From NCBI GenBank assembly GCA_964520655.1, contig CAZFNI010000001.1:122283-186282 (forward strand): a stretch of 64,000 bases of DNA, in the 5' to 3' direction. Below the pieces are notes generated by a model, which saw nothing but the letters and a program-made list of their open reading frames with translations, was not told where the DNA came from and did no database searches. The stretch is from an uncultured Planctomycetales bacterium (GTDB taxonomy: Bacteria; Omnitrophota; Gorgyraeia; Zapsychrales; Fredricksoniimonadaceae). The position numbers and the translations under genes were made by a program. Every line of letters starts with the position of its first letter. Within the stretch, counting starts at the first letter, position 1. Shown piece by piece: positions 11,799 to 64,000 of the stretch.

Positions 11799-11810
11799 TA
11801 GCGAGGGTTT

Positions 11811-29237: not shown

Positions 29238-32200
29238 ATGTTTCAACGATTATTCCACTATTTCGTTACAATGGCTTTTTTCACATCAGTAAGTTTACCT
29301 GTGTTTGCCCAACTTCCAGCGATCAATCTTCCGGAACCAGGCGCCGCTGTCACCGTAAGCGCTGTTTATCAGCCGGTGTTGATCAAAGGGGTCAAGGTTG
29401 ACTCCAAGCATCCATTACATCTGGAATTTATTGTCGATCCTAACGGTCTTTCTATTCAAGACAAATCTTTACGAGCCCAAACCCTGCGTTCTGTCAGGTA
29501 TTTTTTAGCTGCGCTTACTGTCCCCAATGATCAATTATGGGTCAATCTTTCGCCGTATGAGAAACAACGCATTATCCCGGATGGTCTTTCCGCCACTGAA
29601 ATGGGGAGGGATCTGCTGGCACAGGATTATCTGCTTAAGCAGTTGACCGCGACATTATTGAGCCCAACGGCGTCGCCAGGTAAAGAATTCTGGGAACGTG
29701 TTTATCGTCAGGGCAGCCACAGCAAACAGGGAGATCCCGTCCGTATTAATGCTTTCCATAAAGTTTGGATCGTTCCGGATCTTGCAGAGATTAGGGAACA
29801 TAACGGGGTCGCGGTCATTGCGAAAAGCCGTTTAAAGGTCATGCTGGAAGAGGATTATCTGGCAGTAAAAAAGAATGCTAGAACGAACGTTACTGAGGGG
29901 AAAGACCGTGCGTCAACTGAATTCATGCGTGCTGTCATCCTCCCTGAACTGGAACGGGAGGTCAATGAAGGAGCGAATTTTAGTATTGTCCGCCAAGTCA
30001 ATGATGCGCTCTTATTAGCGGCATGGTTCAAGCAAAGGGTCAGACAGGGCGTCCTGGCCTCTGTCTACACAGACCGCAACAAGATCGATGGTATTGACCT
30101 TCAGGATAAAACAGCCAAAGAAAAGATCTATACTCGTTATTTGAAGGCATTTAAAAAGGGCGTTTATAATCAGATCAGGGAGGATGTTGACCCATTGACC
30201 CATCTGAAGATGCCGCGTAAATATTTTTCTGGAGGATATGATGGGACGCATCCATTATTCGTTGTCCAGCCGGCTTCAGAACTTTCCATGATAGAGGCTG
30301 CTGGTGGTGCTCGAGCACTGCTTGCGCCTGTTGATCTAATGGTCATGGCTGATCGGGCTCAAGTTTCCCACGTCACGGCCCAGGAGCGCCTGCAGGAGAT
30401 TAGGCATGACGGGTACGCTGGTTTTCCTGTGGTTGTTGGTGATCAAGACCTTCCGTCTGGAATGACTTATGCATTAAGTTTTTATGATGCCACGGCCGGG
30501 GAAAAGAATAATCCTCTACGGGCTCTGATCAAGGCGGGGAAATTACGCGCTGGGCCGGATTTTAAGTTATTGATCGATGGGGTTCAGGACGGGGATGGTA
30601 TCCTGGTGTCAACCGACAGTGAGGTAGAAGTGGATCGGGTGCTGGTCAAGATACTAAGCGGTGATCAACAAGCGGCTGCATTTGATGCCTGGAAAAAGAA
30701 AGCCCGCAGCGCCGCCATTAAACCATTGGCCATCCATACTTCCAGCATGATCGCCCGCCCAACTGAAGTGCTGTATCGATATGGTATTCTTAAGTTGTTG
30801 ATGTCAAAAGATACGGTTTCCATGAAAGAGATCATCGATCATGTTCGTTCCCTGGTTGTTGATGGAACAATCATTCGAAATAATACACCTAATACCCAGT
30901 ATATTTTTGCTGTCCTGCGTGCATATGCCTCGCTGGGTTGGTTGACCTTTGCGGGAGAGTCGGCCAGTGAAGAGATGGTGTTCTCTTTGACAGAGCGTGG
31001 TCAACAGGCGTTGACTGCTGCAAAGAGCTATGCGGCAGTTGCTGATGCTATCCCAGAGTTTGACAAGATCGTTGACCATTTGTTCAACCGTTCATCGGTG
31101 CTGCTTTTGCCTGCTGGCGCCGCTTCATTGCGATCCATGGCTCTAAGTTCTCAACAGGGGTGGGGGTTGCCGGATAATATGGACGAAGAGGTTCGCCATT
31201 TGGTCCGCGGGCAATTGGACGGTTATCTGATCACCAATCTTGCCCTGGCGTTGCATATGGAAGGTGTATTTCGTTTGATCAATGCTGATCTTGACCTGGA
31301 CATGGATGCTATTGTGCGTTCGAGGAAAATTAGCGGGAATACAGATGAACTTAAGGCGGCGCTGGATATTCTAGCCAATGCTGGATTCCTGCGTGAGTAT
31401 GGGGCAGGACGGTACCATGTGACCTCGGAAGGGGTTGTTGCGTTCGACAGGGTCTTGTCATACGGGGTCCCCGTATCTTACAGGCCAAGTTATGACCTGG
31501 CGGAACGTTTTTTGTTCGGAGACGCAAAGCAGATCCCGCGCATGGATGATGAAGGGCATGAATTGCTTGTCTATCGCTACTTGAACGTCCTTGGTTCCGG
31601 TGCCTCGCATGCTACTTATTTTAAGCAAGTTGACAAGATGGTTGTCCAGATGATCCAGCAGCGTTTTAACAGCGGGGACATTCCTGAGCCAGAAGCATTG
31701 ACAACCCTGGCGCCTTTTGTATTGTCATTCGCTGATACCGGCTCCGGTGACGGGAAGTTTTTGGCGCACATTTATCATGTTATTGTGAAGCAAACGCGTT
31801 ACGGCGAGCTGATGCGGGCATATCCACATCTTTATAAGATCGATATGGTGGGGGTGGATTATAACGGTAAATCAAGAGAGGCCACCAGCGCGACACTATC
31901 AGCAGAACGGATCGAACATTCAGTCATTTTCGGGGACATCAATGAGCCTGCTGATATTGTGCGTGACGTGAACAAAGAGCTTGCCAGGAAAAACCAGGGG
32001 TCGCGTCTGTTGGTGATCCATACCCGGACATTCCTGGATCACAATCGTCCCTGGACAGGGATTAAAAATGTGGAACAGGCAAAAGCGCGCGTGTCTTCGT
32101 CAACAGGGACTTATGGCTGGCGCGGTGAGGCGATCCCCAATAATGTCGTCGAGCAGAATCTGTATGAACACTTCAAGTCTTGGGCGGACGCATTAAGTTC

Positions 32201-32681
32201 AGCTGGTCAGAAGGACTTGATCGTGATCGAACTGCACACGGTGCCTCCTGCGATAGCGGCTGTGAATATTGGCCGCACGCTGGATGTTCCTTATTTCTTG
32301 TCGCATGCCTTCTCAGATCAGCTCATCATTGAGTTCCCGGTTTATGATGCCAGGGTCAAGGAGGCTGGATTTGTCCGGCACCCGGATGCTTCGTTCCACA
32401 AACGGTTTCCTGAAGGGGATCTGACCACGGTATCGGTCGATTACTGGATGCTGCCGGACGTTGTTGTGCCTCCCGCCAAAGCAGGCGGGGAGAGTGATAT
32501 GGCCTCTGCGGCGGATGTCGGCGGTATCAACCTTGATCCTCGTTTGGGGCTGCTACGCATTGACACCGGCAAAGAACCTGTGACGCCAGGAGAAACACGG
32601 CCGCTGCCGATCTCTGATATGGATATCAAAGGTTTATACCCCGTACTGATCAAGATCATTCCTTTAAGAAATGAGCAATGA
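29238..32681 (+). CDS. exported paralog 1: shared ~330-aa N-terminal module (ends PRKYFSGG) fused to a C-terminal class I SAM-dependent O-methyltransferase-like domain
   Basis: Signal peptide MAFFTSVSLPVFA. N-module blocks LWVNLSPYE, GRDLLAQDYLLKQLTATL, NAFHKVWIV and LKVMLEEDYLA. MTase motif I FADTGSGDG, acidic MVGVD, FGDINEP (like GGDMF of OMTs) and LLVIHTRTFLDHNRPW (like ILHDW). Confidence 0.6.
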   Translation: MFQRLFHYFVTMAFFTSVSLPVFAQLPAINLPEPGAAVTVSAVYQPVLIKGVKVDSKHPLHLEFIVDPNGLSIQDKSLRAQTLRSVRYFLAALTVPNDQLWVNLSPYEKQRIIPDGLSATEMGRDLLAQDYLLKQLTATLLSPTASPGKEFWERVYRQGSHSKQGDPVRINAFHKVWIVPDLAEIREHNGVAVIAKSRLKVMLEEDYLAVKKNARTNVTEGKDRASTEFMRAVILPELEREVNEGANFSIVRQVNDALLLAAWFKQRVRQGVLASVYTDRNKIDGIDLQDKTAKEKIYTRYLKAFKKGVYNQIREDVDPLTHLKMPRKYFSGGYDGTHPLFVVQPASELSMIEAAGGARALLAPVDLMVMADRAQVSHVTAQERLQEIRHDGYAGFPVVVGDQDLPSGMTYALSFYDATAGEKNNPLRALIKAGKLRAGPDFKLLIDGVQDGDGILVSTDSEVEVDRVLVKILSGDQQAAAFDAWKKKARSAAIKPLAIHTSSMIARPTEVLYRYGILKLLMSKDTVSMKEIIDHVRSLVVDGTIIRNNTPNTQYIFAVLRAYASLGWLTFAGESASEEMVFSLTERGQQALTAAKSYAAVADAIPEFDKIVDHLFNRSSVLLLPAGAASLRSMALSSQQGWGLPDNMDEEVRHLVRGQLDGYLITNLALALHMEGVFRLINADLDLDMDAIVRSRKISGNTDELKAALDILANAGFLREYGAGRYHVTSEGVVAFDRVLSYGVPVSYRPSYDLAERFLFGDAKQIPRMDDEGHELLVYRYLNVLGSGASHATYFKQVDKMVVQMIQQRFNSGDIPEPEALTTLAPFVLSFADTGSGDGKFLAHIYHVIVKQTRYGELMRAYPHLYKIDMVGVDYNGKSREATSATLSAERIEHSVIFGDINEPADIVRDVNKELARKNQGSRLLVIHTRTFLDHNRPWTGIKNVEQAKARVSSSTGTYGWRGEAIPNNVVEQNLYEHFKSWADALSSAGQKDLIVIELHTVPPAIAAVNIGRTLDVPYFLSHAFSDQLIIEFPVYDARVKEAGFVRHPDASFHKRFPEGDLTTVSVDYWMLPDVVVPPAKAGGESDMASAADVGGINLDPRLGLLRIDTGKEPVTPGETRPLPISDMDIKGLYPVLIKIIPLRNEQ

Positions 32682-32687
32682 ACCGTG

Positions 32688-35600
32688 ATGGAAAACCATC
32701 GAAAATCTCTACATGTAATTTTATCTCTGGTCGTATTTATCAGCGGTTTTTTATCGTCTTTGCCTGAAAACTCTTGGGCAAAACATTCATCCGATCTCTC
32801 CATTAATCTGCCCCCTGCGGGAACAATGGTGACATTAAGCCCGCAATATGAGCCCATTACCATCAAGGGCCTGACAGTAGTCAAGAATGATCCTTTTCGC
32901 TTCGACTTTATTATGACTACAGGTGATGATAATAAATTACAAGGTGAAGCCCTGAAGCTGGAGGGAGAGAAACTGATCCGTTACTTTCTTGCCTCTTTAG
33001 CTGTTCCTGAGCAAGACCTGTGGGTTAATCTTTCGCCATATGAAGGCAGCAGGGTCGTTCCTCCTGCTCTTGGAGATACAGAGCTCGGCCGTGACATGCT
33101 CGCGCAGGATTACATTTTAAAACAATTGACCGCGTCGTTGATCTATCCGGAAAAAGAGTTGGGTAAGAAATTCTGGGACAAGGTGTATGCCCAAATGCAG
33201 GCTCAGTACGGCAAGACCGTCAATATTCCGGTCAATACGTTCAATAAAGTTTGGATCATGGCGGATCAAGCGGAAGTGTTTGAGAAGGATCAGACTGTGA
33301 TGGTGACCAAAAGCCGCTTGAAAGTCATGTTGGAGGAGGATTATTTGGCAGCGACTCGTCATGAAGCATCGGGTCCTGCCTGGGCAGCATCTGTTTCGTC
33401 CTCGCACCACCCATCCCCCGGTGGGGTAGCAAACCTAAAATCTACGTTTCCCCTGGTGCTGCGGTCAAAACAGAGTGTGACCTTTGGGAACACCCGGTAT
33501 GAGGGTGCTGCCCAGTCACCCGATGCCGGCAAGACGGATACTCAAGAAGTGATCCGGCAGATCATCCTGCCTGAGATTGAAAAAGAAGTCAACGAAGGCA
33601 AGAATTTTGCGTCATTGCGGCAGATCTTTAATGCGATCATTCTGGCAAAATGGTTTAAAGAGAATTTAAGAGATTCTATTATTAGTCAGATCTATGGGGA
33701 TAAAAGTAAGGTTAAAGGAATTGAAGTGCAAGACAAAGAGATTGCTCAAAAGATCTATGAGCAGTATGTGAGGGCGTATAAAAAAGGTGTCTTTAATTAC
33801 ATCAAGGTCGAAAAAGGGGATGAGCGTTTGTCATCTGTGCCAAGAAAGTATTTCTCTGGTGGTGTTGTGGGGCGCGTTACTATCACAAGGATTTCGGAAA
33901 TAGACGCAGGAACTGCAAGCAGTCTAAAAGACCATGCCATGGTGTTTTCAACTGTTTTGAATCTGGCCTCGGGGGTTAACCCGCCGGCATATAAGATTGT
34001 ACCGATGGTCTCAGATAAGGCAGATATGGCAGGTTTATGGAAAGATCTCAATGATCCTGCAAAAGTTCAGATAAGAATGGATCAGCACAGGATAAATTTT
34101 GTGACAAGGCACGGCACATTGTCTTTTGTAGGGGAGTATTTCAAAGACAAGCCCGATGCTTTACAGAAGATTCGTTATGCCAAACAGGTCTATTTAAGTG
34201 TGTTATCGTTTCGTGATATGTCAGAGATCGAAGCTGTAATACCGGCATTGAGCGTAATTGAAAAGAGGGCGGTATTATCATGGATCGACAGTAAATTCAC
34301 CTCCGCAGGAACGCCTGTCTCAGATAAATTAGGCAGGATCCGTGACATTATTTATGGAAATGAGGAGGATATGGCCATGACTGCCGGTGCGTTTATCACG
34401 GCATTTACAGGTAGGAATGGTTCAGGGGACAGGACCATCATGATCAATGTGTTAAATGAGCTATCAAAGCCGCCATTTGTCCGTGTTCCTAAGACAATAT
34501 TGGGGGAGTATGATATTTATCCTGTGAATGATTATGTTTTAATGAGGGTTAGTAAAGATGCGCAAAAGGGAAAAATGAATTGTGTTTTTGAGGTGGACCA
34601 AGGTGAGATCGGTAGTATTGAAATGGTTGTTGATCAGTCATGGTATGAGGCGCATTCTTTCGCGGATATGATCATGTTGATGAAAGAATTGGCGCAGCAT
34701 TATCTCAGTGATCTGGCCCTGGTGATGTCCGGTTATGTCGGTGTTCGTGCTGATGATATTAGGGTGGTGGGGAATGTTTATTTCTCAAATTTGCAGAATG
34801 ATTGGGACGATGGCGTAGAAATAATCAAGGATCTGCAAATGCTGGGATGGTTTATGGAACAAGGGGCCGTACCCAAATTTGCATTTGACCGGAGAAAAAC
34901 ACGTGTCGATATTGATTATGGAGAGGGTTTGCCTGTTCTTACTTTTGAGTCCAGGGAGGTTAATGGGAAAAAGGTTTTGGATAAGGTTATGTATAAAAAG
35001 GCGGGAGATGATGTCCCGGTGCTGATGGTTCTTGTTGGCCGGGATGGGGGCAAGCTGCCTTGGGTTAAAAAGAGCGTAATGAACGCCTTGGCAGAATTCA
35101 GGAGATCGCTCATTTTGTATATGCTCAAGAGATATCCAGAGCAGAGCCGCGTTATCCTGCACTTGATGTCGTCCAAAGATAGGGAGTCTTTGGAATCAAC
35201 CAACAGTCATTTATTAGGTGACTATGGCTATGCGCTGTACAAAGTTGAAGAGGATTATATGCGACTGCCTATAGCATCAACGATCACTGCGGGAACAGAA
35301 CATCATCCTCCTGCCAGAATATTAACTTTTCCTGGGGTATATTCTCCTGATTATGTAAGAGCCGGTTTGGAAGTAGCGTCTTATTTAGCTCACCCCAATG
35401 CTATAAGATATTCAAAGACGGATCCAGAGTTTATTTATCCTCCTGCCGGTTTGAGCTTGTATGCGGGGTATTTTTCAAGAATAAGCAAGGCGCAGAAGAT
35501 TATTCTAGAGGAGATCGAGAGAGCCTTTAGACAGGAGGGGCTTGTGCTGTATTCAAGGCCGATCGACCATTTTGGCCTTGAGCGGGAACGCAGAGAGGGG

Positions 35601-36263
35601 CTGCATATTGGTGAAGGGGGGGTGAATATATATTTTACGGCTGATCAGGAAAATGTTGCTTATCTTGATCCGCTGCGTCATCAGATCATTAGATCATTAT
35701 GGTTAGCCTTATATGGATTAGATCGAGATGAACAAAGGCTGCAGCAGCAAGAACATGATCGGAAAATGGCTGCTTTTATCAAGTCGTTGTTTAACGAGGG
35801 TGAAACAAATGCCTATCTTTTTCAACCTGTTAATGAAGAAGGCTATATTATTCTAATGAAAGAAGGACGAGAGATCGGACAGGTTGCTATTTTACCGTCA
35901 GGACAGGGAGGTATTCAGGTTGTTATTCAAAGATTTATTCCAACAATGGAGATATTTCAGTATGTTTTGCCGCAAAAGGACATTCAAGGACTGACATGGT
36001 CGGATATTTTGATCGATGTGCTCGATATTCTGGAACAAAACGAGCGAGGCGATCGGGACCAAGGAATGCTGTCGAATACTGGGGGTATTGATCTGAGAGC
36101 TCAAAATGCACCTCTTTCTGTTATTACTCAAGGTGCAGGAGCCGTGATGCGGATCGATCGGTCTATTATTGATCAGATCGAAAGACAAGGCATAGAAGGT
36201 CTTATTCCTGTGGTTCTTAAGATATCCCCATTAGAAAGTACGCGTATTCTCTTTAAACAGTAA
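32688..36263 (+). CDS. exported paralog 2: same N-terminal module (with a ~55-aa low-complexity insertion) fused to an unassigned ~800-aa C-terminal region
   Basis: Signal peptide ending in SWA. Blocks LWVNLSPYEGSRVVPPALGDTELGRDMLAQDYILKQLTASLIYPEKELGKKFWDKVYA, VNTFNKVWIMAD and PRKYFSGG. The start follows the paralog-1 stop by 6 nt (GTG 32685 / ATG 32688). Confidence 0.6.
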   Translation: MENHRKSLHVILSLVVFISGFLSSLPENSWAKHSSDLSINLPPAGTMVTLSPQYEPITIKGLTVVKNDPFRFDFIMTTGDDNKLQGEALKLEGEKLIRYFLASLAVPEQDLWVNLSPYEGSRVVPPALGDTELGRDMLAQDYILKQLTASLIYPEKELGKKFWDKVYAQMQAQYGKTVNIPVNTFNKVWIMADQAEVFEKDQTVMVTKSRLKVMLEEDYLAATRHEASGPAWAASVSSSHHPSPGGVANLKSTFPLVLRSKQSVTFGNTRYEGAAQSPDAGKTDTQEVIRQIILPEIEKEVNEGKNFASLRQIFNAIILAKWFKENLRDSIISQIYGDKSKVKGIEVQDKEIAQKIYEQYVRAYKKGVFNYIKVEKGDERLSSVPRKYFSGGVVGRVTITRISEIDAGTASSLKDHAMVFSTVLNLASGVNPPAYKIVPMVSDKADMAGLWKDLNDPAKVQIRMDQHRINFVTRHGTLSFVGEYFKDKPDALQKIRYAKQVYLSVLSFRDMSEIEAVIPALSVIEKRAVLSWIDSKFTSAGTPVSDKLGRIRDIIYGNEEDMAMTAGAFITAFTGRNGSGDRTIMINVLNELSKPPFVRVPKTILGEYDIYPVNDYVLMRVSKDAQKGKMNCVFEVDQGEIGSIEMVVDQSWYEAHSFADMIMLMKELAQHYLSDLALVMSGYVGVRADDIRVVGNVYFSNLQNDWDDGVEIIKDLQMLGWFMEQGAVPKFAFDRRKTRVDIDYGEGLPVLTFESREVNGKKVLDKVMYKKAGDDVPVLMVLVGRDGGKLPWVKKSVMNALAEFRRSLILYMLKRYPEQSRVILHLMSSKDRESLESTNSHLLGDYGYALYKVEEDYMRLPIASTITAGTEHHPPARILTFPGVYSPDYVRAGLEVASYLAHPNAIRYSKTDPEFIYPPAGLSLYAGYFSRISKAQKIILEEIERAFRQEGLVLYSRPIDHFGLERERREGLHIGEGGVNIYFTADQENVAYLDPLRHQIIRSLWLALYGLDRDEQRLQQQEHDRKMAAFIKSLFNEGETNAYLFQPVNEEGYIILMKEGREIGQVAILPSGQGGIQVVIQRFIPTMEIFQYVLPQKDIQGLTWSDILIDVLDILEQNERGDRDQGMLSNTGGIDLRAQNAPLSVITQGAGAVMRIDRSIIDQIERQGIEGLIPVVLKISPLESTRILFKQ

Positions 36264-47513: not shown

Positions 47514-47536
47514 CAAAATAACAAAGGGGGAGAGTA

Positions 47537-48145: not shown

Positions 48146-48172
48146 GGAAATACGTAACATAAGGCAGATGCA

Positions 48173-48973
48173 TTGAATAAAACAGTTATTTTCTTAGTTT
48201 TGGTGTTGGCATGCTTTTCCGGTAAGACGGCAATGGCGCAGCTTTTTCTCGAAGAGGGGAAGATCGTCACAGCTGTCGAACCGGGAGAGCGTGTCAACAA
48301 ATCGATTTATATTTCCAATACTTCTGACAAGCCGATCAATGTCAGGGCGTATTGGCAGGACTTTATGTATCAGCCGCCCTATGACGGGGTTAAAGCGTTT
48401 GTGCCTGAGGGTACGACCAAATTATCCGCATCCAAGATGATGACGTTCTCCCCGTTGGTTTTCCAATTGCCTGCCTTCGGCAAGCAAAAGATAGAGTATT
48501 CTGTGAATGTGCCTTCAACCGCCAGGGGCGGCTATTATGGGGTTTTATTCTTTGAAAAAGCACCAGATCCTCTGCAGGCCAAGACGGGTTTAAGCATTGT
48601 CACCAGGGTCGGTGCTTTATTTTTCCTGGAAACTAAGAACAAGTCCAAGAAATCTGAAGTGGCGGATGTTGTTGTCGCTACAGATAAAATAACCGGTGTT
48701 TTCAAAAACCAGGGGGATGTGATCTTGATCCCCCGCATGACTTACAACGTTTTCGATAAGGAGGGATTGGTCGCCGACCGCGGTGAATTAAAGAAAATAT
48801 ATGTTCCCCCCGGCGCCTCCGCGAATTGGGAAATGGTCCTGCCTAAATTAAGCGCAGGAAAATTCTCTGTAGTACTAAACACGGATTTAGATGATGGGGA
48901 CGTGATCGTCACTGAGATCAGCATTGATGTGGATACCGCAGGTCATCTGAAGATTGAAAACGTCAAGAATTGA
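48173..48973 (+). CDS. periplasmic pilus chaperone-like protein (PapD/CsuC-like fold)
   Basis: Signal peptide. N-terminal beta-rich pattern KSIYISNTSDKPINVRAYWQ...PLVFQLPAFGKQKI resembles the PapD-like domain 1. Confidence 0.4.
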   Translation: MNKTVIFLVLVLACFSGKTAMAQLFLEEGKIVTAVEPGERVNKSIYISNTSDKPINVRAYWQDFMYQPPYDGVKAFVPEGTTKLSASKMMTFSPLVFQLPAFGKQKIEYSVNVPSTARGGYYGVLFFEKAPDPLQAKTGLSIVTRVGALFFLETKNKSKKSEVADVVVATDKITGVFKNQGDVILIPRMTYNVFDKEGLVADRGELKKIYVPPGASANWEMVLPKLSAGKFSVVLNTDLDDGDVIVTEISIDVDTAGHLKIENVKN

Positions 48974-58600: not shown

Positions 58601-58890
58601 TTGATTTTATCCAATTACGATTGAAAGAGGGGATGCCTCTTCAAGAAGCGGTGATCGATGCCGGGGCCACGCGTTTCAGGCCAATGTTGTTAACGGCATT
58701 GGCAGTAGCGGTTGGGGCATCAGTTATTTTGTTTGACCCCATTTTCCAGGGGCTGGCGGTGTCGCTCATGGCTGGTGAGATCGCATCGACTTTTCTAGCC
58801 AGGACGGCTATTCCAGTCGTCTATTATATGGCCAATAGGAAAGATATTTCATTGATCAACAACGAGGATAAAGGAGGTGTATCATGTTAG
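55639..58890 (+). CDS. RND-superfamily efflux transporter permease (CzcA/CusA/AcrB-like)
   Basis: 1083 aa, 12 TM helices with two large periplasmic loops. N-terminal MNWIGKVVAFFVQSKVTPLILGFSLFLGIIAV. No membrane-fusion-protein gene lies between the OMF and the RND. Confidence 0.85.
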   Translation: MDNERMNWIGKVVAFFVQSKVTPLILGFSLFLGIIAVVNLAREEEPQISVPMFDIFVRYPGASAQEVERRIINVGERKLWEVPGVEYIYSTAQSNGALIVVRFKVGEDMERSLTKLYTKVFANLDFLPPGAGQPLVKAHAIDDVPILSMTFHSAKHSPQQLRSIAAAVRESINTIPDISQTQLIGGRTRQWMVHLDEEKLKAHYLGVADIGHLIRQANIKTEGGHLEVSPEAALVQANGFFRSAEDLNNLVVSVSGKDIVFLKDIADIVDGPDQDERLVNIRFGKGYELEDKGVYDAVTLAVSKRKGANATWIAQQALEKVKSLEGNIIPAGVKMTVTRNYGETAAEKSNELLYHMGIAVLGVTLLIALALGWRESGVVAVAIPVTLALTLASFYWMGFTLNRITLFALIFSIGILVDDPIVNVENIVRHLRLAQNRGKKFLDIVIGAVNEVQSPLILATLTVVAAILPMAFVSGLMGPYMRPIPIGSSMAMMFSMMAAFVATPWAAYVILRRAHERGALKDGHDHREDALTKFYRWYMQPLIYNNQVRQIFLIVMGVLLCASILLVPLKAVKVKMLPFDNKDEFQVILDMPEGTSFDKTAAVIQEMAEYLRSVPEVKDIEAYVGTSAPYNFNGLVRHYYLRQSPREADLQVNLLPKHKRHRQSHEIAKSVRTGIHEIAARHRGHVQVAEVPPGPPVLSTLSMEVYGHDNKDRDQLSRDVEGVMAANANITDITTHVASDQRLMRLVIDHHKAGLNGIASDVIAKTIAAALAGEKVDLAHLEEEYEPVEIMVRLPSKKRADLDHVLAMTILSRNGVPVPLRDLIVLKDGIEDKPIYHKNLMRVSYVLGDVTGPFESPVYVVFELDQKLKGLKLPGVNNKQTQLRTHWTDMPKDESLWAVKFDGEWQVTYEVFRDLGIAFGVVLLLIYVLVVGWFKSFKTPIIIMLPIPLTLVGILPAHWIFGVFFSATSMIGMIAGAGIVVRNSIILVDFIQLRLKEGMPLQEAVIDAGATRFRPMLLTALAVAVGASVILFDPIFQGLAVSLMAGEIASTFLARTAIPVVYYMANRKDISLINNEDKGGVSC

Positions 58891-59069
58891 AGAGATCATT
58901 ACGAGGCATCGCGGGATTCTTTATCCTGTTGAGTTTGGCGCTGGCACACTATGTCGATGCCCGTTGGTTATGGTTTACAGCATTTGTGGGCGCTAATTTA
59001 TTCCAGTCGGCTTTTACCAACTGGTGCTTGATGATGACGATCTTAAAGAAATGTGGGATAAAAGAATGA
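58884..59069 (+). CDS. DUF2892 (YgaP-like) small membrane protein
   Basis: Conserved GANLFQSAFTNWC block. Confidence 0.55.
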   Translation: MLERSLRGIAGFFILLSLALAHYVDARWLWFTAFVGANLFQSAFTNWCLMMTILKKCGIKE

Positions 59070-59117
59070 TCAAGTTATAATAGTGAAGATTCTAGGATCA
59101 ATAAACGGGAAGACAGT

Positions 59118-60764
59118 ATGCGAATACTTATTGTAGGCGGAGTTGCGGGCGGGGCCTCAGCAGCGGCAAGGGCGAGACGCTTATCAGAGAGCGCCGAGAT
59201 CATTGTATTTGAACGCGGTGAGCATGTGTCTTTTGCCAATTGCGGACTGCCTTATCACATCGGTGGAGTTATCAAAGAGCGCGACAAATTGATCCTACAA
59301 ACACCTGTATCATTGTTTAAGCGGATGAACATTATCGTAAAGGTAAGATCCGAAGTCGTTAAGATCGTCCGTGAAAAGAAATATATTGAGGTTAAGGATC
59401 TGGTAACCGGCAAAATGACTCAAGAGCAATATGATGTGCTGATCCTAAGTCCTGGAGCGGAACCGATAAGGCCGTCGATGCCGGGCATTGATCTGCCTAA
59501 TGTCATGACACTGCGCAATATCGCGGATATGGACAGGATCAAAGTGCATGTGGACAAACTGGACCTCAAGCATGCGGTTGTCGTCGGAGGTGGATATATT
59601 GGTCTGGAAATGACCGAGGCGTTGCGTCAACGGGGGGTGGATGTCACGCTCATTGAATTATCACAACAAGTCATGGGGCCTGCCGACCCGGAAATGGCCT
59701 ATTATTTGCATCAAGAATTGAAAAAACATGCCGTGGATCTCAGGTTTGGTGTATCCATGACAGGGATATTTGAAGATGATGATGGGATCGCGGTCGCTTT
59801 AAGCAATTTGGAGAAGATAGCAACGGATTTTGTGATCCTAGCCATTGGCGTGAAGCCCGATGTCTCTTTAGCCAAAGCTGCAGGCTTAAAGATCGGAGAG
59901 CGCGGTGGGATCATGACCAATGCCGCTATGCTGACTAACGATCCGTCGATTTATGCGGTCGGTGATGCGGTTGAGGTGGAAGAATGGGTGACAGGTACGC
60001 GGGCATTGATCCCTTTAGCCGGCCCGGCTAATCGCCAGGGGCGTATCGCTGCGGATAATATTTTCAAACGCGGCAGTGTCTATAAAAAGACCCAAGGCAC
60101 AGCGGTATGCAAATTATTCGACCTGGCCATTGCCATGACCGGCATCAATGAGAAGACACTTAAGCGGATGAATTTGCCTTATGCGAAGATTCATACACAT
60201 GCCAATGACCATGCAGGGTATTATCCCGGTTCAAAGCAAATTCATATGAAATTACTATTCGATCCATCGTCGGGTAAGATCTACGGTGCCCAGGCGGTAG
60301 GTGAGAACGGAGTGGATAAACGTATTGATATTCTGGCAGTTGCGCTGCGTGCCGGGTTGACAGTTCATGATCTGCAGGATCTAGAGCTTTGTTATGCGCC
60401 TCCGTACGGATCGGCCAAAGATCTTGTTAATTTTTTGGGGTTTGTGGCCTCTAATGCCATTAACGGTGATGTGACGCATTGCTATATGGAAGACATCAAA
60501 AATGTTCGACCCAATCAAGTCATTCTCGATGTGCGCACTCAAAAGGAAGCTCAAAGCGGTGTGATCCCCGGGGCGGTCAATATCCCTGTTGATGAGCTGC
60601 GCGGACAACTGGGCGCATTGTCCAAAGATAAAGAATATCTGGCCTATTGCCAGGTGGGATTGCGGGGTTATTTAGCTTGCCGTATATTAAGTCAGTCGGG
60701 TTTTAAATGCCGGAATTTTTCCGGAGGGTATTTAACGTATCAAGCCGCTAGCGGCAATTCATAG
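59118..60764 (+). CDS. CoA-disulfide reductase with C-terminal rhodanese domain (CoADR-RHD)
   Basis: FAD motif ILIVGGVAGGASAAAR. Redox Cys in SFANCGLPY. C-terminal rhodanese with active Cys in AYCQVGLRG. Confidence 0.85.
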   Translation: MRILIVGGVAGGASAAARARRLSESAEIIVFERGEHVSFANCGLPYHIGGVIKERDKLILQTPVSLFKRMNIIVKVRSEVVKIVREKKYIEVKDLVTGKMTQEQYDVLILSPGAEPIRPSMPGIDLPNVMTLRNIADMDRIKVHVDKLDLKHAVVVGGGYIGLEMTEALRQRGVDVTLIELSQQVMGPADPEMAYYLHQELKKHAVDLRFGVSMTGIFEDDDGIAVALSNLEKIATDFVILAIGVKPDVSLAKAAGLKIGERGGIMTNAAMLTNDPSIYAVGDAVEVEEWVTGTRALIPLAGPANRQGRIAADNIFKRGSVYKKTQGTAVCKLFDLAIAMTGINEKTLKRMNLPYAKIHTHANDHAGYYPGSKQIHMKLLFDPSSGKIYGAQAVGENGVDKRIDILAVALRAGLTVHDLQDLELCYAPPYGSAKDLVNFLGFVASNAINGDVTHCYMEDIKNVRPNQVILDVRTQKEAQSGVIPGAVNIPVDELRGQLGALSKDKEYLAYCQVGLRGYLACRILSQSGFKCRNFSGGYLTYQAASGNS

Positions 60765-60770
60765 AAAGGA

Positions 60771-60992
60771 ATGACAATGAAGAATAAGATCAAAGTTCAT
60801 GATGGTATCGTAGGGACGGTTATTTTGTTAAGCGTGATCTTAGCCTATACGGTTGATATCCGCTGGGTATTTCTAGCGGGGGGTGTGTCGCTGGCTATGA
60901 TCTCAAGCGCGTTTACCGGATTTTGCCCGGTTTATTTTATCCTCAATCAATGCATGCCTTGCTCTGATGGTCAGGGCAAATGCTCTTCTTAA
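60771..60992 (+). CDS. DUF2892 (YgaP-like) small membrane protein
   Basis: Conserved SSAFTGFCPVYFIL block. Cys-rich C-terminus. Confidence 0.55.
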   Translation: MTMKNKIKVHDGIVGTVILLSVILAYTVDIRWVFLAGGVSLAMISSAFTGFCPVYFILNQCMPCSDGQGKCSS

Positions 60993-61062
60993 AAAGACGG
61001 TAAATGGTGTTCTGGGGAGAAATTACATAAATATGTCTGAAAAATCTTTGTAACACAATGTT

Positions 61063-61121
61063 TGACAATGATTTATGTAATTTCTCATTTCTTGACAACC
61101 TTCGTTGGTGTGCTATATTTT
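61063..61121 (+). promoter_or_regulatory. candidate sigma70 promoters upstream of paralog 3
   Basis: TTGACA at 61063-61068. A second TTGACA at ~61092-61097 followed 17 nt later by TATATT. Confidence 0.35.
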
Positions 61122-61186
61122 TCGTATTCTTTTTCATTTCCTAGACAGTGAATTCAAAATAATCAGAACGTAACGGAGAGAGCCAC

Positions 61187-64000
61187 ATGTTCAAGAAAAC
61201 ACTTCACGTCATTGTCATTGTTTGTTTTGCGGCGACTTTTATGACCCCTTTAAGAAAGGCTGAGGCCGAGTCTTTGGTGTTGCCGCAACCTGGCACCATG
61301 GTCAATTTAAGCCCCGCATTCTCTCCGGTGCTCATTAAAGGAATAAAGATCCATCCCGATAATCCTTTGTTATTTGATTTCATCATTGATACCGGTCATA
61401 CGGGTTTTAAAGCCCAGCAGCCGCAGTTGCGTCAGGAAACAGAAAAGCTTATCAAATATTTTTTGGCGACTTTGACGATCCCAGAGAATGAACTGTGGGT
61501 TAACTTGTCCCCGTATGAAAAAGACCGCATTATCCCCGACACATTAGGCCAGACAGAATTGGGCAGGGACATGCTGGCGCAGGATTATATCTTAAAGCAG
61601 TTGACTGCCTCCTTGATCTATCCGGAAAAAGAATTAGGGAAAGATTTTTGGAACAGGGTGTATGCCAAGTCCCAGGATCGTTTTGGTAAAGCGCAGGTAC
61701 CGGTCAATACCTTTAACAAAGTGTGGATCATGGCGGATAAGGCGAAGATCTATGTCCATGACAATACCGCGTTTGTTGTTGCGTCGCATTTAAAGGTCAT
61801 GCTCGATAAAGATTATTTGGCCTTAAAGAAGAATCAGAAGACCGCAGCAAACACAAAAGATGTGACATCCGACATCGTACGTGAGATTGTTCTGCCCGAG
61901 ATCGAAAAGGAAGTCAACACGGGCAAGAACTTCGCCAATTTACGTCAGGTGTATCAGTCGATGATTTTAGCGACTTGGTATAAGAACAATTTGAAAGAGG
62001 CTTTATTAAACCAGGTCTATACGGATAAGTCCAAGTTAAACGGGGTCACCGCCGACGATAAAGCAGTGACGGAAAAGATCTACGCGCAGTATTTGGAAGC
62101 GTATAAGAAGGGTGTTTTCAATTATATTAAAGACGATCCCGCATCAACAACGCCGCGCAAATATTTCTCCGGCGGGGCTGTTGGTCTTCACGCACAAGAT
62201 ATCAAGGTGGTTGGAAGCAATGACGTAGATTTTGCCATGTTCGCCAAGACGGGTGCAACAGGTGATCTGCTGCAAGCGACGGCAGCGGTAGAGAAAGATG
62301 CGGCGATGCAGACAGGTCTTCCTGTAAATAACCCTAGACAAACTGAAAGTTGGAATAAGCTTCAGGTGCTTGCATCCAATAGGAGTCAGTATGATTTAAG
62401 AGAATTATTCCGTACTGATCCAGCTCGTTCCGTGAATATGCTTGTCGCGCTCAATGATCAAGTCGAGGTGGATTTTTCAAAGAATCTGGTTGATGGACCG
62501 ACGTTGTCAACATTAGTGGCGTTGGCGAATGAAGTTCAATTGCCAGCAGCCATCGAAATGATGTTCCAGGGAGAGAAGATCAATGAAACAGAAGGACGTG
62601 CGGTCTTACATGTTGCTTTAAGAAATGTGACCCGCGACGCAAGCGGTGAGCTTGTGACGGCGAATGGTCCTATTCTGGTCGACGGAGAAGATGTTATGCC
62701 TCATGTTATTGATGTGTTAAAGAGCGTGGAAGTCTTTACCAAAAAAGTGCAGTCTGGTCAGTGGGTGGGGTTGTCTGGTAAAAAGATCAAAAATATCGTT
62801 AATGTTGGGATTGGCGGTTCTGATCTTGGTCCGCGGATGGCTGCTGAAGCGTTAAAACCTTACAAAGCAGGGGATGTTGATGCATATTTCGTTTCTAATG
62901 TTGACGGTACTGATGCCCAAGAGGTAATGAAGAAACTGGACCCGCAAGAAACTCTTGTGATCGTTGCTTCCAAAACATTCACAACACAAGAAACAATGAA
63001 AAATGCAGATACTTTGAAAAATTGGGTCTTAAAAAGTTATCAGGGTGATATGGAGGCGATTAAAAAGCATTTTGTGGCTGTTTCAACAGCTAAAGATAAA
63101 GTTGAGGCATTTGGTATTGATACGGCCAATATGTTTGAATTCTGGGATTGGGTCGGCGGGCGTTATTCTGTTTGGTCTGCGATCGGGCTTTCTCTGGCAA
63201 CGTATATCGGGTTTGATAACTTTCTTGAGTTTTTGGCTGGAGGAAGAGAGGCGGATGAGCATTTTAGATCTCAGCCGTTTGAAAAAAACATTCCGGTATT
63301 GAAAGCTTTATTGAATGTGTGGTACGGGAACTTCTTAGGAGCGGAAAGTTTTGCGATCTTACCTTATGATCAATACATGCACCGTTTTCCTGCCTTTGCG
63401 CAGCAATTTTTTATGGAAAGCAACGGCAAGAGTGTTGACCGGGAGGGGAAGCCGGTGGGTTATCAAACTGGTTTGATCGCGTGGGGGGAACCGGGCACAA
63501 ATGGGCAGCATTCGTTTTATCAATTGATCCATCAAGGGACGCGTCTGGTTCCAGCAGATTTTATAGGGATAGCTCAAACACATAATCCATTGCCAGGGCA
63601 TCATCCAATGCTGTATTCGAATTTTGTTGCCCAGACGGAAGCGTTGGCTTTTGGCGCGACAAAAGATGAGGTAAGGAAAGCACTTGAAGCAGACCCAAAA
63701 TATCAAGGTAAGGATCTTGATTGGCATGCCATGCAGCAGACGTTCGCTGGGAATAAGCCCACGACCTCGATCGAGGTTGATCAGCTTTCTCCAAGGACAT
63801 TGGGTAATCTGGTGGCTATGTATGAGCAGCAGATTTTTACGGAAGGGATCATTTGGAATATCTATTCTTTTGACCAGTGGGGCGTTCAGCTTGGCAAGAA
63901 GATGTCTGACAGTGTGCTTCCGTTCTTAACTGGAAAGAGGAGTATTAGTGAACTTCCTCAGTCAGGGCTTTCGGCATCTGCTCAGCGGCAGGTTCTTAAG
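61187..64000 (+). CDS. pgi: exported paralog 3: shared N-terminal module fused in-frame to a complete glucose-6-phosphate isomerase. 3' end lies beyond the window.
   Basis: Signal peptide MFKKTLHVIVIVCFAATFMTPLRKAEA. N-module blocks LWVNLSPYEKDRIIPDTLGQTELGRDMLAQDYILKQLTASLIYPEKELGKDFWNRVYA...PRKYFSGG. From ~62340: ESWNKLQ...MFQGEKINETEGRAVLHVALRN...GIGGSDLGP...FVSNVDG...SKTFTTQET...FWDWVGGRYSVWSAIGLS...MESNGK...GEPGTNGQHSFYQLIHQG (PGI signatures). Frame 2 is open from 61187 to the window end. Confidence 0.6.
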   Translation, partial: MFKKTLHVIVIVCFAATFMTPLRKAEAESLVLPQPGTMVNLSPAFSPVLIKGIKIHPDNPLLFDFIIDTGHTGFKAQQPQLRQETEKLIKYFLATLTIPENELWVNLSPYEKDRIIPDTLGQTELGRDMLAQDYILKQLTASLIYPEKELGKDFWNRVYAKSQDRFGKAQVPVNTFNKVWIMADKAKIYVHDNTAFVVASHLKVMLDKDYLALKKNQKTAANTKDVTSDIVREIVLPEIEKEVNTGKNFANLRQVYQSMILATWYKNNLKEALLNQVYTDKSKLNGVTADDKAVTEKIYAQYLEAYKKGVFNYIKDDPASTTPRKYFSGGAVGLHAQDIKVVGSNDVDFAMFAKTGATGDLLQATAAVEKDAAMQTGLPVNNPRQTESWNKLQVLASNRSQYDLRELFRTDPARSVNMLVALNDQVEVDFSKNLVDGPTLSTLVALANEVQLPAAIEMMFQGEKINETEGRAVLHVALRNVTRDASGELVTANGPILVDGEDVMPHVIDVLKSVEVFTKKVQSGQWVGLSGKKIKNIVNVGIGGSDLGPRMAAEALKPYKAGDVDAYFVSNVDGTDAQEVMKKLDPQETLVIVASKTFTTQETMKNADTLKNWVLKSYQGDMEAIKKHFVAVSTAKDKVEAFGIDTANMFEFWDWVGGRYSVWSAIGLSLATYIGFDNFLEFLAGGREADEHFRSQPFEKNIPVLKALLNVWYGNFLGAESFAILPYDQYMHRFPAFAQQFFMESNGKSVDREGKPVGYQTGLIAWGEPGTNGQHSFYQLIHQGTRLVPADFIGIAQTHNPLPGHHPMLYSNFVAQTEALAFGATKDEVRKALEADPKYQGKDLDWHAMQQTFAGNKPTTSIEVDQLSPRTLGNLVAMYEQQIFTEGIIWNIYSFDQWGVQLGKKMSDSVLPFLTGKRSISELPQSGLSASAQRQVLK

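What the first reader, a model, noticed from the sequence alone, without database searches (positions are those of the whole stretch)
61187..64000. Complete glucose-6-phosphate isomerase fused in-frame behind a signal peptide and the same N-terminal module
Reading frame 2 from the ATG at 61187 runs without a stop to the window end. The first ~330 aa are the paralog N-module (signal peptide, LWVNLSPYE, GRDMLAQDYILKQLTASLIYPEKELGK, PRKYFSGG). From ~62340 the sequence is an unmistakable full Pgi (GEKINETEGRAVLHVALRN, GIGGSDLGP, SKTFTTQET, ESNGK, GEPGTNGQHSFYQLIHQG). A core glycolytic enzyme apparently exported or tethered via this module is highly unusual. The other two paralogs sit next to glycogen phosphorylase, which suggests a glucose-polymer theme.
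Basis: seen in the sequence. Interest (0 to 1): 0.85.

Follow-up and report, generated by a model that had tools for sequence, protein, structure and literature searches.

The report
Exported, cysteine-free PGI on Omnitrophota carrier
A complete sugar-phosphate enzyme (glucose-6-phosphate isomerase) is genuinely fused behind a secretion signal and an uncharacterised 300-residue module, as one member of a very large, undescribed protein family in the nanobacterial phylum Omnitrophota whose normally intracellular cargo has been stripped of cysteine, as expected for proteins sent out of the cytoplasm.

Summary
Frame 2 is open from ATG 61187 to the window end. It encodes a Sec-type signal peptide, a ~300-aa N-module shared with two paralogs (29238-32681, 32685-36263), a 43-aa linker, and a full, catalytically intact Pgi starting at its native Met374 (nt 62306).

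The fusion is not an artefact. Seven other independent assemblies carry N-module-PGI fusions. Their PGIs form one clade (61-77% identity to each other, at most 58% to any stand-alone PGI).

The N-module defines an undescribed Omnitrophota family:
- 8,396 clusters at 50% identity.
- The module always occurs once, at the N-terminus.
- Members run signal peptide, N-module, variable cargo, then a conserved ~65-aa "GGIDL" C-tail (88% of complete members).
- Cargo modules are punctuated by D-x-A-[MQ] or SSP[VI] motifs.

Cargo is almost cysteine-free: 0.05-0.07% against 1.1% in neighbouring genes. All six fused PGIs examined have 0 Cys, whereas 113 of 113 free PGIs have at least one.

Best reading: a Sec-exported modular carrier family, with PGI as cargo that acts outside the cytoplasm. 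The machinery, final location and physiological role are inferred, not shown. Nothing I could search describes it.

The parts
61092..61119 (+). Promoter-like site (TTGACA, 16 nt, TG-extended TATATT)
   Evidence: 11 of 12 consensus matches with TG before the -10 hexamer. No comparable site lies upstream of the internal Met at 62306.
61175..61182 (+). Shine-Dalgarno-like GGAGAGAG, 5 nt upstream of the start codon
   Evidence: duplex energy with the anti-SD is -6.6 kcal/mol. The window gene median is -3.3.
61187..61267 (+). Sec-type signal peptide, aa 1-27 (MFKKTLHVIVIVCFAATFMTPLRKAEA | ES), with a predicted SPase I site A-E-A|E
   Evidence: Read directly from the sequence. The AF2 model has a helix at residues 2-19. 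Family-wide, 97% of members have a positively charged n-region and 100% have a -3/-1 small-residue site before the conserved LNLPxPG. There is no lipobox and no twin-arginine motif.
61268..62185 (+). N-module, aa 28-333: an orphan alpha/beta fold that defines the family. It ends in the invariant RKYFSGG (aa 324-330, nt 62156-62176).
62186..62305 (+). Flexible linker carrying two punctuation motifs: DFAM (aa 348-351, nt 62228-62239) and DAAM (aa 371-374, nt 62297-62308, the M being the Pgi start)
   Evidence: D-x-A-[MQ] is enriched 4- to 9-fold after N-modules and not within them. In six PGI-bearing members, 36 of 36 motifs lie outside annotated domains.
62306..64000 (+). Glucose-6-phosphate isomerase domain, aa 374-938, cut by the window end about 4 residues before the canonical C-terminus. 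Zero cysteines.
   Evidence: PF00342 at 676 bits and NF001211 at 733 bits. End-to-end alignment with E. coli Pgi, with the catalytic motifs GGRYS, ESNGK, GQHSFYQ and WGVQLGK intact. 0 Cys, against at least 1 in 113 of 113 stand-alone PGIs.
29238..32681 (+). Paralog B (1147 aa): signal peptide, N-module, AprA-like winged helix and MT2 methyltransferase cargo, GGINL C-tail. 0 Cys.
32685..36263 (+). Paralog C (1192 aa): signal peptide, N-module (with a 60-aa insert), about 725 aa of cargo with no Pfam hit, GGIDL C-tail. 1 Cys.

Best explanation
The ORF starting at 61187 is one gene for one polypeptide. It runs: cleavable Sec signal peptide, ~300-aa orphan-fold N-module, short punctuated linker, then an intact Pgi. 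Beyond the window it very probably continues with further linker or cargo and the family's ~65-aa GGIDL C-terminal tail.

It belongs to a very large, Omnitrophota-restricted family of modular 'carrier' proteins. In this family a constant N-module and a constant C-tail bracket interchangeable cargo modules, separated by D-x-A-[MQ] or SSP[VI] punctuation.

Proposed mechanism:
1. The protein is exported unfolded through Sec and the signal peptide is removed.
2. The N-module and C-tail act as handling, anchoring or sorting elements for a later step, either retention in the envelope or passage across the outer membrane.
3. The cargo, here Pgi, folds and acts outside the cytoplasm: in the periplasm, on the cell surface, or at the interface with a prey or host cell. 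There, together with the PGM and hexokinase cargo of sister proteins, it would interconvert hexose phosphates.
4. The punctuation motifs are candidate processing sites that could release individual cargo modules.

Shown:
- The fusion exists and has been conserved since a single ancient capture.
- The family architecture is as described.
- The signal-peptide features are present.
- Cargo is extremely and specifically depleted of Cys.
- The PGI active site is intact.

Inferred:
- That export actually happens.
- The roles of the N-module, tail and punctuation.
- The site of action and the physiological role.
For: Fusion is real:
- The frame is open, composition is smooth across the junction, and the ORF has its own promoter-like site and SD.
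- Seven further N-module-PGI fusions come from independent assemblies with different architectures: P0001 has hexokinase plus PGI, P0004 and L037 have PGM plus PGI, and P0003, P0005, P0012 and P0364 make up the rest.
- The fused PGIs are monophyletic in an NJ tree (61-77% identity to each other, at most 58% to stand-alone PGIs).

Family:
- 8,396 clusters at 50% identity, 6,783 of them at E<=1e-30. The N-module is always at residues ~1-370, in proteins of 420-5,312 aa.
- All 79 genome loci recovered are Omnitrophota MAGs, several per genome.
- 67 of 76 complete ORFs, and 104 of 132 representatives, end in the GGIDL tail.

Export:
- Positive n-region in 97% of members, an uncharged h-region, and a -3/-1 small-residue site in 100%.
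- Cargo Cys is 0.07% over 77,107 residues, against 1.08% in neighbouring genes (Mann-Whitney p=1e-34).
- An independent set gives 0.053% over 164,785 residues. 87 of 132 members have zero Cys. Generic signal-peptide-like neighbours have 0.56%. Other residues are near normal.
- All 6 fused PGI domains examined have 0 Cys, against 113 of 113 stand-alone PGIs with at least one.
- No CxxxCxxC cofactor motifs occur in cargo.
- From my own knowledge: near-absence of Cys is characteristic of proteins that cross the envelope unfolded or live outside the cell, such as autotransporter passengers, T1SS substrates and S-layer proteins.

Punctuation:
- D-x-A-[MQ] 87 observed vs 9.5 expected, and 218 vs 53. 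SSP[VIL] 149 vs 6.
- 36 of 36 motifs lie outside domains, and each protein uses one motif type.

Context:
- Published Omnitrophota 'multi-enzyme metabolic' long proteins carry signal peptides or TM segments and PGM, hexokinase and starch-synthase domains.
- PGI and hexokinase are accessory in the phylum (bioRxiv 10.64898/2026.06.07.730766).
Against: - Much of the family's cargo needs cytoplasmic cosubstrates that are not expected in a periplasm or outside a cell. Examples are hexokinase (ATP), UDP-glucose pyrophosphorylase (UTP), methyltransferases (SAM), HATPase, LpxC, PGK and even ribosomal protein S9.
- Pgi substrates are phosphorylated sugars that are normally intracellular.
- No secretion or processing gene is conserved next to family genes.
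- The tail matches no known sorting-signal model.
- Signal peptides were judged by simple rules, not by a trained predictor.
- No experimental localisation exists.
- The C-tail of this particular protein lies beyond the window and is only inferred from relatives.
- Whether this genome has a second, cytoplasmic pgi is unknown.
Confidence: 0.6

Rival explanations
1. Membrane-tethered cytoplasmic scaffold. The N-terminal hydrophobic helix is an uncleaved anchor. The N-module and cargo stay on the cytoplasmic face, forming membrane-associated multi-enzyme assemblies that channel hexose phosphates in very small cells (HK-PGI, PGM-PGI).
For: - Cargo consists of cytoplasmic-type, nucleotide-dependent enzymes, often of consecutive steps.
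- The 2026 preprint reads 46% of Omnitrophota long proteins as inner-membrane-anchored with cytoplasmic domains.
- The h-region is fairly long, with a median uncharged run of 18.5 residues.
Against: - The positive charge lies N-terminal of the helix (median +3), which by the positive-inside rule puts the rest of the protein outside.
- A -3/-1 small-residue site is conserved in 100% of members.
- A 20-fold, Cys-specific depletion of cargo and mature N-module has no rationale for cytoplasmic proteins, and the only Cys-rich part is the signal peptide itself (1.46%).
Confidence: 0.15
2. Dual or internal initiation. The physiologically relevant product is a stand-alone cytoplasmic Pgi initiated at Met374 (nt 62306). 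The upstream in-frame N-module is a separate or additional product.
For: - Met374 sits exactly at the canonical Pgi start.
- About half of the window's genes have equally weak SD sequences, so a weak SD (-3.0 kcal/mol) does not exclude initiation.
- The genome has unfused transketolase, transaldolase and glycogen phosphorylase, which imply cytoplasmic hexose-phosphate metabolism.
Against: - There is no stop codon, no internal promoter-like site, and an SD at the in-ORF background level.
- 5 of 8 fused relatives have no Met at the PGI N-terminus.
- The PGI domain is Cys-free like all exported-type cargo and unlike every free PGI.
- The D-A-A preceding the Met is a protein-level family motif that also occurs where no Met follows (D-x-A-Q).
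Confidence: 0.15
3. Artefact or decay. A sequencing frameshift, lost stop codon or chimeric assembly has joined two genes, or the locus is a pseudogene.
For: - The source contig could not be recovered from public collections to check reads.
- Only a 2.9-kb Logan contig covers the upstream neighbouring gene, not the fusion itself.
Against: - The same architecture occurs in 7 other assemblies from different samples.
- The fused PGIs are monophyletic and have been conserved over long divergence.
- Catalytic motifs are intact.
- There is no compositional break at the junction.
- The junction carries the family's own punctuation motif.
Confidence: 0.02
4. Non-catalytic cargo. The exported Pgi acts as a binding or adhesion module (moonlighting, as described for surface glycolytic enzymes in other bacteria) rather than as an enzyme.
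For: - Phosphosugar substrates are scarce outside cells.
- Other family cargo includes interaction repeats such as WD40, HEAT and ankyrin.
- From my own knowledge: surface-exposed PGI, enolase and GAPDH with adhesive roles are known in several bacteria.
Against: - All catalytic motifs are strictly conserved in winA and its fused relatives.
- Co-fusion with PGM or hexokinase, which catalyse adjacent reactions, argues for a metabolic function.
Confidence: 0.08

Closest known systems
Omnitrophota 'multi-enzyme metabolic' long and giant proteins (bioRxiv 10.64898/2026.06.07.730766; West-Roberts et al., bioRxiv 10.1101/2023.11.21.568195)
   Same: Same phylum. Long polypeptides tiled with sugar-metabolism and other cytoplasmic-type enzyme domains (PGM, hexokinase, starch synthase, NUDIX, methyltransferases). 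Most have a signal peptide or TM segments. Proteolytic processing into smaller products has been proposed for them.
   Different: Those papers classify by Pfam content and topology. The passages I searched for N-terminal, C-terminal, fusion and cysteine terms do not describe the conserved N-module, the GGIDL C-tail, the punctuation motifs or the cysteine purge. The present protein is of ordinary length (more than 938 aa), not giant.
MARTX toxins (modular effector-delivery platforms of Vibrio and relatives); comparison from my own knowledge
   Same: Conserved N- and C-terminal regions bracket an array of interchangeable cargo (effector) domains. Short inter-domain sites allow the cargo to be released by proteolysis. 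Cargo is shuffled between relatives.
   Different: MARTX toxins have RTX and glycine-rich repeats, an internal cysteine protease domain and a T1SS C-terminal signal, and no Sec signal peptide. None of these was detected here. The cargo here consists of housekeeping enzymes, not toxins.
Type IX secretion cargo (Sec signal peptide, functional domains, ~80-aa C-terminal domain) in Bacteroidota
   Same: Two-signal logic: an N-terminal Sec signal plus a conserved short C-terminal domain that would direct a second step. Very diverse cargo.
   Different: No match to T9SS CTD models in NCBIfam or Pfam. Different phylum. T9SS cargo has no large conserved N-module and is not Cys-free as a rule.
LapA-type T1SS adhesins (N-terminal retention module, passenger, C-terminal secretion signal); comparison from my own knowledge
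   Same: A constant N-terminal module that could retain or anchor the protein, a variable middle, a constant C-terminal signal, and a short proteolytic motif near the N-module.
   Different: LapA-type proteins lack a Sec signal peptide, carry RTX repeats, and are cleaved by LapG at a di-alanine site. Only 18% of the D-x-A-[MQ] motifs here have Ala at x, and no RTX repeats were found.
Stand-alone bacterial glucose-6-phosphate isomerase (Pgi; PF00342, NF001211)
   Same: The C-terminal 565 aa are a bona fide full-length Pgi with all catalytic motifs, 56% identical to E. coli Pgi.
   Different: It is fused behind a signal peptide and N-module. It has no cysteine at all, whereas every stand-alone homologue sampled has at least one. 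It belongs to a clade made only of fused PGIs.

Membership tests
Glucose-6-phosphate isomerase (PF00342 / NCBIfam NF001211) | Full-length match above the curated cutoff | tested here: met
   PF00342 scores 676 bits (cutoff 22), covering profile positions 1-479 of 486. NF001211 scores 733 bits (cutoff 492).
Glucose-6-phosphate isomerase (PF00342 / NCBIfam NF001211) | Catalytic motifs conserved (Arg in GGRYS, Glu in ESNGK, His in GQH[AS]FYQ, Lys in WGV[EQ]LGK) | tested here: met
   Pairwise alignment with E. coli Pgi (P0111) shows all four motifs conserved.
Glucose-6-phosphate isomerase (PF00342 / NCBIfam NF001211) | Isomerase activity | not testable with these tools
   Needs an enzyme assay of the recombinant domain.
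Omnitrophota N-module / GGIDL-tail carrier family (defined here) | N-terminal Sec-type signal peptide followed by a single N-module ending in [KR]KYFSGG | tested here: met
   winA aa 1-333. Alignments A1 and A2 have 39-66 invariant columns, and RKYFSGG lies at aa 324-330.
Omnitrophota N-module / GGIDL-tail carrier family (defined here) | Cargo separated by D-x-A-[MQ] or SSP[VI] punctuation | tested here: met
   DFAM at 348-351 and DAAM at 371-374, both in the linker and none inside a domain.
Omnitrophota N-module / GGIDL-tail carrier family (defined here) | Near-absence of Cys after the signal peptide | tested here: met
   winA has 1 Cys in total, at residue 13 within the signal peptide, and 0 in the mature N-module, linker and Pgi.
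Omnitrophota N-module / GGIDL-tail carrier family (defined here) | C-terminal ~65-aa tail: GGI[DN]L ... G[FL]xPVIxNIxP ... LLG | not testable with these tools
   The ORF runs off the window at 64000, and the source contig was not found. The tail is present in both window paralogs and in the complete fused relatives P0001, P0003, P0004, L037 and P0364.
Type IX secretion cargo | C-terminal Por secretion-tail domain recognised by NCBIfam or Pfam models | tested here: not met
   There are no NCBIfam hits for complete paralogs B and C, and no Pfam hit for either tail even at E<=10.
Autotransporter (type V secretion) | C-terminal beta-barrel translocator domain of at least 250 aa | tested here: not met
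   The tails are only 55-100 aa and have no Pfam autotransporter hit.
RTX / MARTX / T1SS substrates | GGxGxD nonapeptide repeats, no N-terminal Sec signal, and (for MARTX) an internal cysteine protease domain | tested here: not met
   No Pfam RTX or CPD hits. A Sec-type signal is present. The cargo lacks Cys altogether.
PEP-CTERM / exosortase-, rhombosortase- or sortase-type C-terminal sorting signals | Signature motif followed by a TM helix and a basic cluster at the extreme C-terminus, recognised by NCBIfam models | tested here: not met
   There are no NCBIfam hits. The hydrophobic PVIINxxPxxNLPLLLGL segment is proline-rich and is followed by acidic or polar residues, not basic ones.
Bifunctional transaldolase/PGI (NF007080) | Match above the curated cutoff | tested here: not met
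   The score is 58.6 bits against a cutoff of 712. Transaldolase is a separate gene at 11811-12911.
Lipoprotein or Tat substrate | Lipobox [LVI][ASTVI][GAS]C, or a twin-arginine motif, in the signal peptide | tested here: not met
   The signal peptide MFKKTLHVIVIVCFAATFMTPLRKAEA has no RR motif. Its only Cys (VIVC) does not fit a lipobox and is not conserved in alignment A1.

The most novel reading that the evidence does not exclude
Omnitrophota possess a previously unrecognised, phylum-specific protein export or display platform. It consists of an orphan-fold N-module, a GGIDL C-tail and punctuated, cysteine-free cargo. Through it these predatory or host-dependent nanobacteria externalise whole metabolic enzymes (PGI, PGM, hexokinase, UDP-glucose pyrophosphorylase, PGK and others) and interaction domains. 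That would amount to an 'outsourced metabolism' operating in the envelope, on the surface, or inside or at the attacked cell, with the punctuation motifs serving as polyprotein-like release sites.
Probability: 0.4. Interest if true: 0.9.

Novelty: new variant of a known kind. Interest (0 to 1): 0.8.

Why it matters
If these proteins are truly exported, a whole phylum of ultra-small, host-dependent or predatory bacteria routinely places intact 'cytoplasmic' enzymes outside the cytoplasm, using two conserved handling modules that have no known relatives.

That would do three things:
1. Define a new secretion or display signal pair, and by implication unknown machinery.
2. Change metabolic reconstructions of Omnitrophota. 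A PGI, PGM or hexokinase hit in a genome may not belong to the cell's own glycolysis. This matters given that PGI and hexokinase are patchy in complete genomes.
3. Offer a natural library of thousands of enzymes re-engineered to be cysteine-free and Sec-compatible.

Even on the conservative reading, a family with at least 8,396 clusters at 50% identity and an orphan fold, missing from Pfam and NCBIfam, deserves a family definition.

Tried and rejected
1. Recovering the source contig to see the 3' end of the ORF and to look for a second pgi. An exact 51-mer found nothing in genome contigs or metagenome contigs. An exact-protein lookup of the upstream gene gave only a 2.9-kb Logan contig.
3. The idea that giant Omnitrophota proteins are concatenations of [N-module-cargo-tail] units. 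Rejected: the N-module occurs once, at the N-terminus, in essentially all of the 150 best representatives.
4. The idea that the tail's last strand mimics the N-module's first strand (donor-strand exchange or polymerisation). Rejected at the sequence level: hhalign probability 0.2%.
5. A dedicated neighbouring transporter or protease. None found: the best recurring neighbour is an FtsX-like permease in 9 of 79 loci.
6. A tail-profile search for tails without N-modules or outside Omnitrophota. It returned only short fragments, and the few named ones were Omnitrophota.
8. The punctuation as a DNA-level recombination site. Unlikely, because codons differ between copies (GAT TTT GCC ATG against GAT GCG GCG ATG).
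9. Literature. The signature motifs are not mentioned anywhere searchable. Kizina et al. 2022 (PMC9004380) is not held.


Full report
OBSERVATION

Translating 61187-64000 gives 938 codons with no stop. The first ~333 residues match two other ORFs of the window: 32685-36263 at 48% identity (E 8e-111) and 29238-32681 at 46% identity (E 6e-95).

Pfam PGI covers aa 429-924 at 676 bits. The NCBIfam equivalog NF001211 scores 733 bits against a cutoff of 492, with profile position 5 at aa 382. Aligned with E. coli Pgi, the match runs from the very same start Met (Met374, nt 62306) to within about 4 residues of the canonical C-terminus, where the window ends. Identity is 56%, and the catalytic motifs GGRYS, ESNGK, GQHSFYQ and WGVQLGK are intact.

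The ORF has its own expression signals. A promoter-like site lies at 61092-61119 (TTGACA-16-TG-TATATT, 11/12), and a GGAG Shine-Dalgarno precedes the start (-6.6 kcal/mol). GC content is smooth across the junction.

THE FUSION IS NOT AN ARTEFACT

A search of 5.8 billion proteins with the whole ORF returned proteins that score about twice a PGI alone. They carry the same N-module followed by PGI:
- P0001: N-module, hexokinase, PGI, tail. Its PGI is 73% identical to the window's.
- P0004: N-module, PGM, PGI, tail.
- P0003, P0005 and P0012.

P0001's gene call is truncated. Its true start lies upstream and encodes a signal peptide. Two more fusions turned up later: a 2,084-aa ORF in locus L037 (N-module, unknown, PGI, PGM, three repeats, tail) and P0364.

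In a neighbour-joining tree the six full-length fused PGIs form one clade, apart from 50-odd stand-alone PGIs. They are 61-77% identical to each other and at most 58% identical to any free PGI. This points to one ancient capture, maintained under selection and reshuffled with different partners.

WHAT THE N-MODULE IS

A profile of the module recovers at least 1,954 proteins in the word-indexed database, and nearly every named one is 'Candidatus Omnitrophica/Omnitrophota'. An exhaustive HMMER scan of 1.84 billion cluster representatives finds 8,396 proteins, 6,783 of them at E<=1e-30. The module is essentially always a single copy at residues ~1-370, in proteins of 420 to 5,312 aa.

A scan of one genome per species gave more than 596 matching stretches. 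The best 79 loci are all Omnitrophota MAGs, with several loci per genome. Of these loci, 20 of 79 hold two or three family genes within about 20 kb, as in this window, where paralogs B and C are 3 nt apart.

No library recognises the module:
- Pfam, NCBIfam, PHROGs and PADLOC gave no hit.
- A PDB sequence-profile search gave no hit.

The very conserved C-terminal stretch KKGV[FY]NYIKE...PRKYFSGG is predicted disordered in both models. This is the pattern expected of a recognition or processing motif.

FAMILY ARCHITECTURE

Complete members end in a conserved ~65-aa tail, GGI[DN]L...G[FL]xPVIxNIxP...LLG. It is present in both window paralogs, in 67 of 76 complete ORFs from genomes, and in 104 of 132 long representatives. 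The tail matches no Pfam or NCBIfam sorting-signal model. A tail-profile search gave only fragments, and the few that carry a source name are Omnitrophota.

Between the N-module and the tail lies variable cargo. A sample of 37 members contained 78 Pfam families:
- UDP-glucose pyrophosphorylase, methyltransferases, LpxC, HATPase, WD40 and HEAT.
- Ankyrin, NUDIX, ribosomal S9, PGK and RecJ.
- PGM and hexokinase.

Cargo modules are punctuated. D-x-A-[MQ] is 4- to 9-fold enriched after the N-module but not within it, and SSP[VIL] is about 25-fold enriched. In six PGI-bearing members, 36 of 36 such motifs lie outside annotated domains and flank each module. Each protein uses only one motif type. 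In the window protein the motifs are DFAM (348-351) and DAAM (371-374), and the M of DAAM is Pgi's native start.

WHERE THE PROTEIN GOES

The N-terminus has the three parts of a cleavable Sec signal. The window protein reads MFKK / TLHVIVIVCFAATFMTP / LRKAEA|E. Across 126 representatives the n-region is positively charged in 97%, the uncharged core has a median of 18.5 residues, and a -3/-1 small-residue site precedes the conserved LNLPxPG in 100%. There is no lipobox and no twin-arginine motif.

The independent and, I think, most telling evidence is composition:
- After the signal peptide these proteins are almost devoid of cysteine. Cargo has 0.07% Cys over 77,107 residues, against 1.08% in neighbouring genes of the same genomes (Mann-Whitney p = 1e-34).
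- A second, independent set has 0.053% over 164,785 residues. The mature N-module has 0.036%. In that set, 87 of 132 proteins have no Cys at all, including proteins of 3,000-4,000 aa.
- The effect is specific. All other residues have ratios of 0.9-1.25, except His at 0.62.
- It is ten times stronger than in generic signal-peptide-like neighbours (0.56%).
- All six fused PGI domains have zero Cys, while 113 of 113 stand-alone PGI homologues have at least one. For example, E. coli VPCDF corresponds to VPADF here.
- No CxxxCxxC cofactor motif occurs in cargo.

From general knowledge, such a purge is typical of proteins that must stay unfolded while crossing the envelope, or that live outside the cell (autotransporter passengers, T1SS substrates, S-layer proteins). 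It has no rationale for cytoplasmic enzymes. I therefore favour true export over a cytoplasmic tether.

INTERNAL START

Met374 is at the canonical Pgi start, but several points argue against a conserved internal start:
- Its SD (-3.0 kcal/mol) is at the in-ORF background level of -2.8.
- No promoter-like site precedes it.
- 5 of 8 fused relatives have no Met at that position.

Half of the window's genes have equally weak SDs, so occasional internal initiation in this organism cannot be excluded. It is not a conserved feature of the fusion.

CONTEXT AND LITERATURE

The window is ordinary Omnitrophota chromosome. It encodes unfused transketolase and transaldolase, beta-oxidation genes, GroEL, glycogen phosphorylase, ADP-forming acetyl-CoA synthetase, an RND pump with a TolC-like protein, and a pilus-related gene. 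No gene family recurs next to family members.

Published work describes Omnitrophota long 'multi-enzyme metabolic' proteins with signal peptides or TM segments and PGM, hexokinase and starch-synthase domains. It also reports that PGI (67/176) and hexokinase (25/176) are accessory, while lower glycolysis is universal (bioRxiv 10.64898/2026.06.07.730766). Proteolytic processing of giant proteins has been proposed (bioRxiv 10.1101/2023.11.21.568195).

None of the papers I could read mentions the N-module, the tail, the punctuation or the cysteine purge, and the signature motifs occur nowhere in the searchable literature.

INTERPRETATION

Shown:
- A real, anciently conserved fusion of an intact Pgi to a signal peptide and an orphan-fold module.
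- Membership in a very large Omnitrophota-specific family with a constant head and tail and punctuated, shuffled, Cys-free cargo.

Inferred:
- Sec export, followed by an unknown second step in which the N-module and tail act as anchor or sorting elements.
- Possible proteolytic release at the punctuation motifs.
- Pgi acting extracytoplasmically, plausibly with PGM and hexokinase cargo, on hexose phosphates available at a prey or host interface.

The main difficulty is that much of the cargo needs ATP, UTP or SAM. This keeps a membrane-tether model and a delivery-into-another-cell model alive.

VERDICT

The case is considerably broader and more interesting than a single odd fusion.

- Novelty: a new variant of the two-signal exported modular protein theme, with new modules and an unprecedented class of cargo.
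- Interest: 0.8.

Noticed in passing
window 29238-32681 and 32685-36263: The two paralogs are tandem, with stop and start 3 nt apart. Paralog B carries an AprA-like winged-helix and MT2 methyltransferase cargo (PF23589, PF23525). Paralog C has about 725 aa of cargo with no Pfam hit and a 60-aa insert inside its N-module.
   Followed up: partly
window 61017-61086: An imperfect 29-nt inverted repeat (79% complementary, 12-nt spacer) lies immediately upstream of the promoter-like site of the fusion gene. It could be an operator, or the terminator of the small upstream ORF.
   Followed up: no
window 46161-51660: An 896-aa protein with an RcpC/CpaB-type pilus N-terminal domain (PF13629) and an SdrD B-like domain is preceded by three ORFs (450, 202 and 266 aa) with no Pfam hit. 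This may be a Tad/pilus-related cluster of the kind reported near Omnitrophota giant genes.
   Followed up: no
window 58884-60992: A CoA-disulfide-reductase-like flavoprotein with a C-terminal rhodanese domain (59118-60764) is flanked by two small ORFs, 58884-59069 and 60771-60992. The upstream one has a YgaP-like_TM (PF11127) hit. The downstream one I judged YgaP/DUF2892-like by eye only and did not test. This looks like a small sulfur-transfer unit directly upstream of the fusion gene.
   Followed up: no
window 10039-12911: Split transketolase (N and C halves as separate genes) and transaldolase are unfused and have normal cysteine content. This shows that ordinary cytoplasmic sugar-phosphate enzymes coexist with the exported-type Pgi in this genome.
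   Followed up: partly
family members P0154, P0185, P0164, P0190, P0193 (database proteins): Some members have a second signal-peptide-like hydrophobic segment with an AxA|Q site right after the N-module, as if whole precursor genes had been captured behind the module. 27 of 76 complete members have at least one TM-like segment after the N-module. In the three PGI-bearing members I checked by position (P0004, P0364, L037), that segment is the hydrophobic core of the tail.
   Followed up: partly
C-termini of long family representatives (e.g. P0351, P0345, P0272, P0300): Beyond the GGIDL tail many members end with a further short motif, roughly E-x-[LI]-S-x-L-[NK], at the extreme C-terminus. Its meaning is unknown.
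   Followed up: no
P0375 (77-kb contig), P0423 (86-kb), P0432 (49-kb, Omnitrophica): ORFs of only 63-115 aa that consist of little more than the GGIDL tail occur on long contigs. They may be free-standing tail mini-proteins or remnants of frameshifted long genes.
   Followed up: no
P0002 (1102 aa, 230-kb ENA contig): This is a tandem PGI-PGI duplication in one polypeptide without any N-module. It is unrelated to the Omnitrophota family and appeared only as a high-scoring hit.
   Followed up: no
L037 3148-9399 (aa ~1727-2000 of the ORF): Three copies of an ~80-aa repeat, each beginning with the punctuation motif (DAAMIVDPKTLELLGEPQYLGGRN..., DRAMVVDSKTLQLLGEPQYLGGRN...), lie between the PGM cargo and the tail. 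There is no Pfam hit.
   Followed up: no
   Followed up: partly
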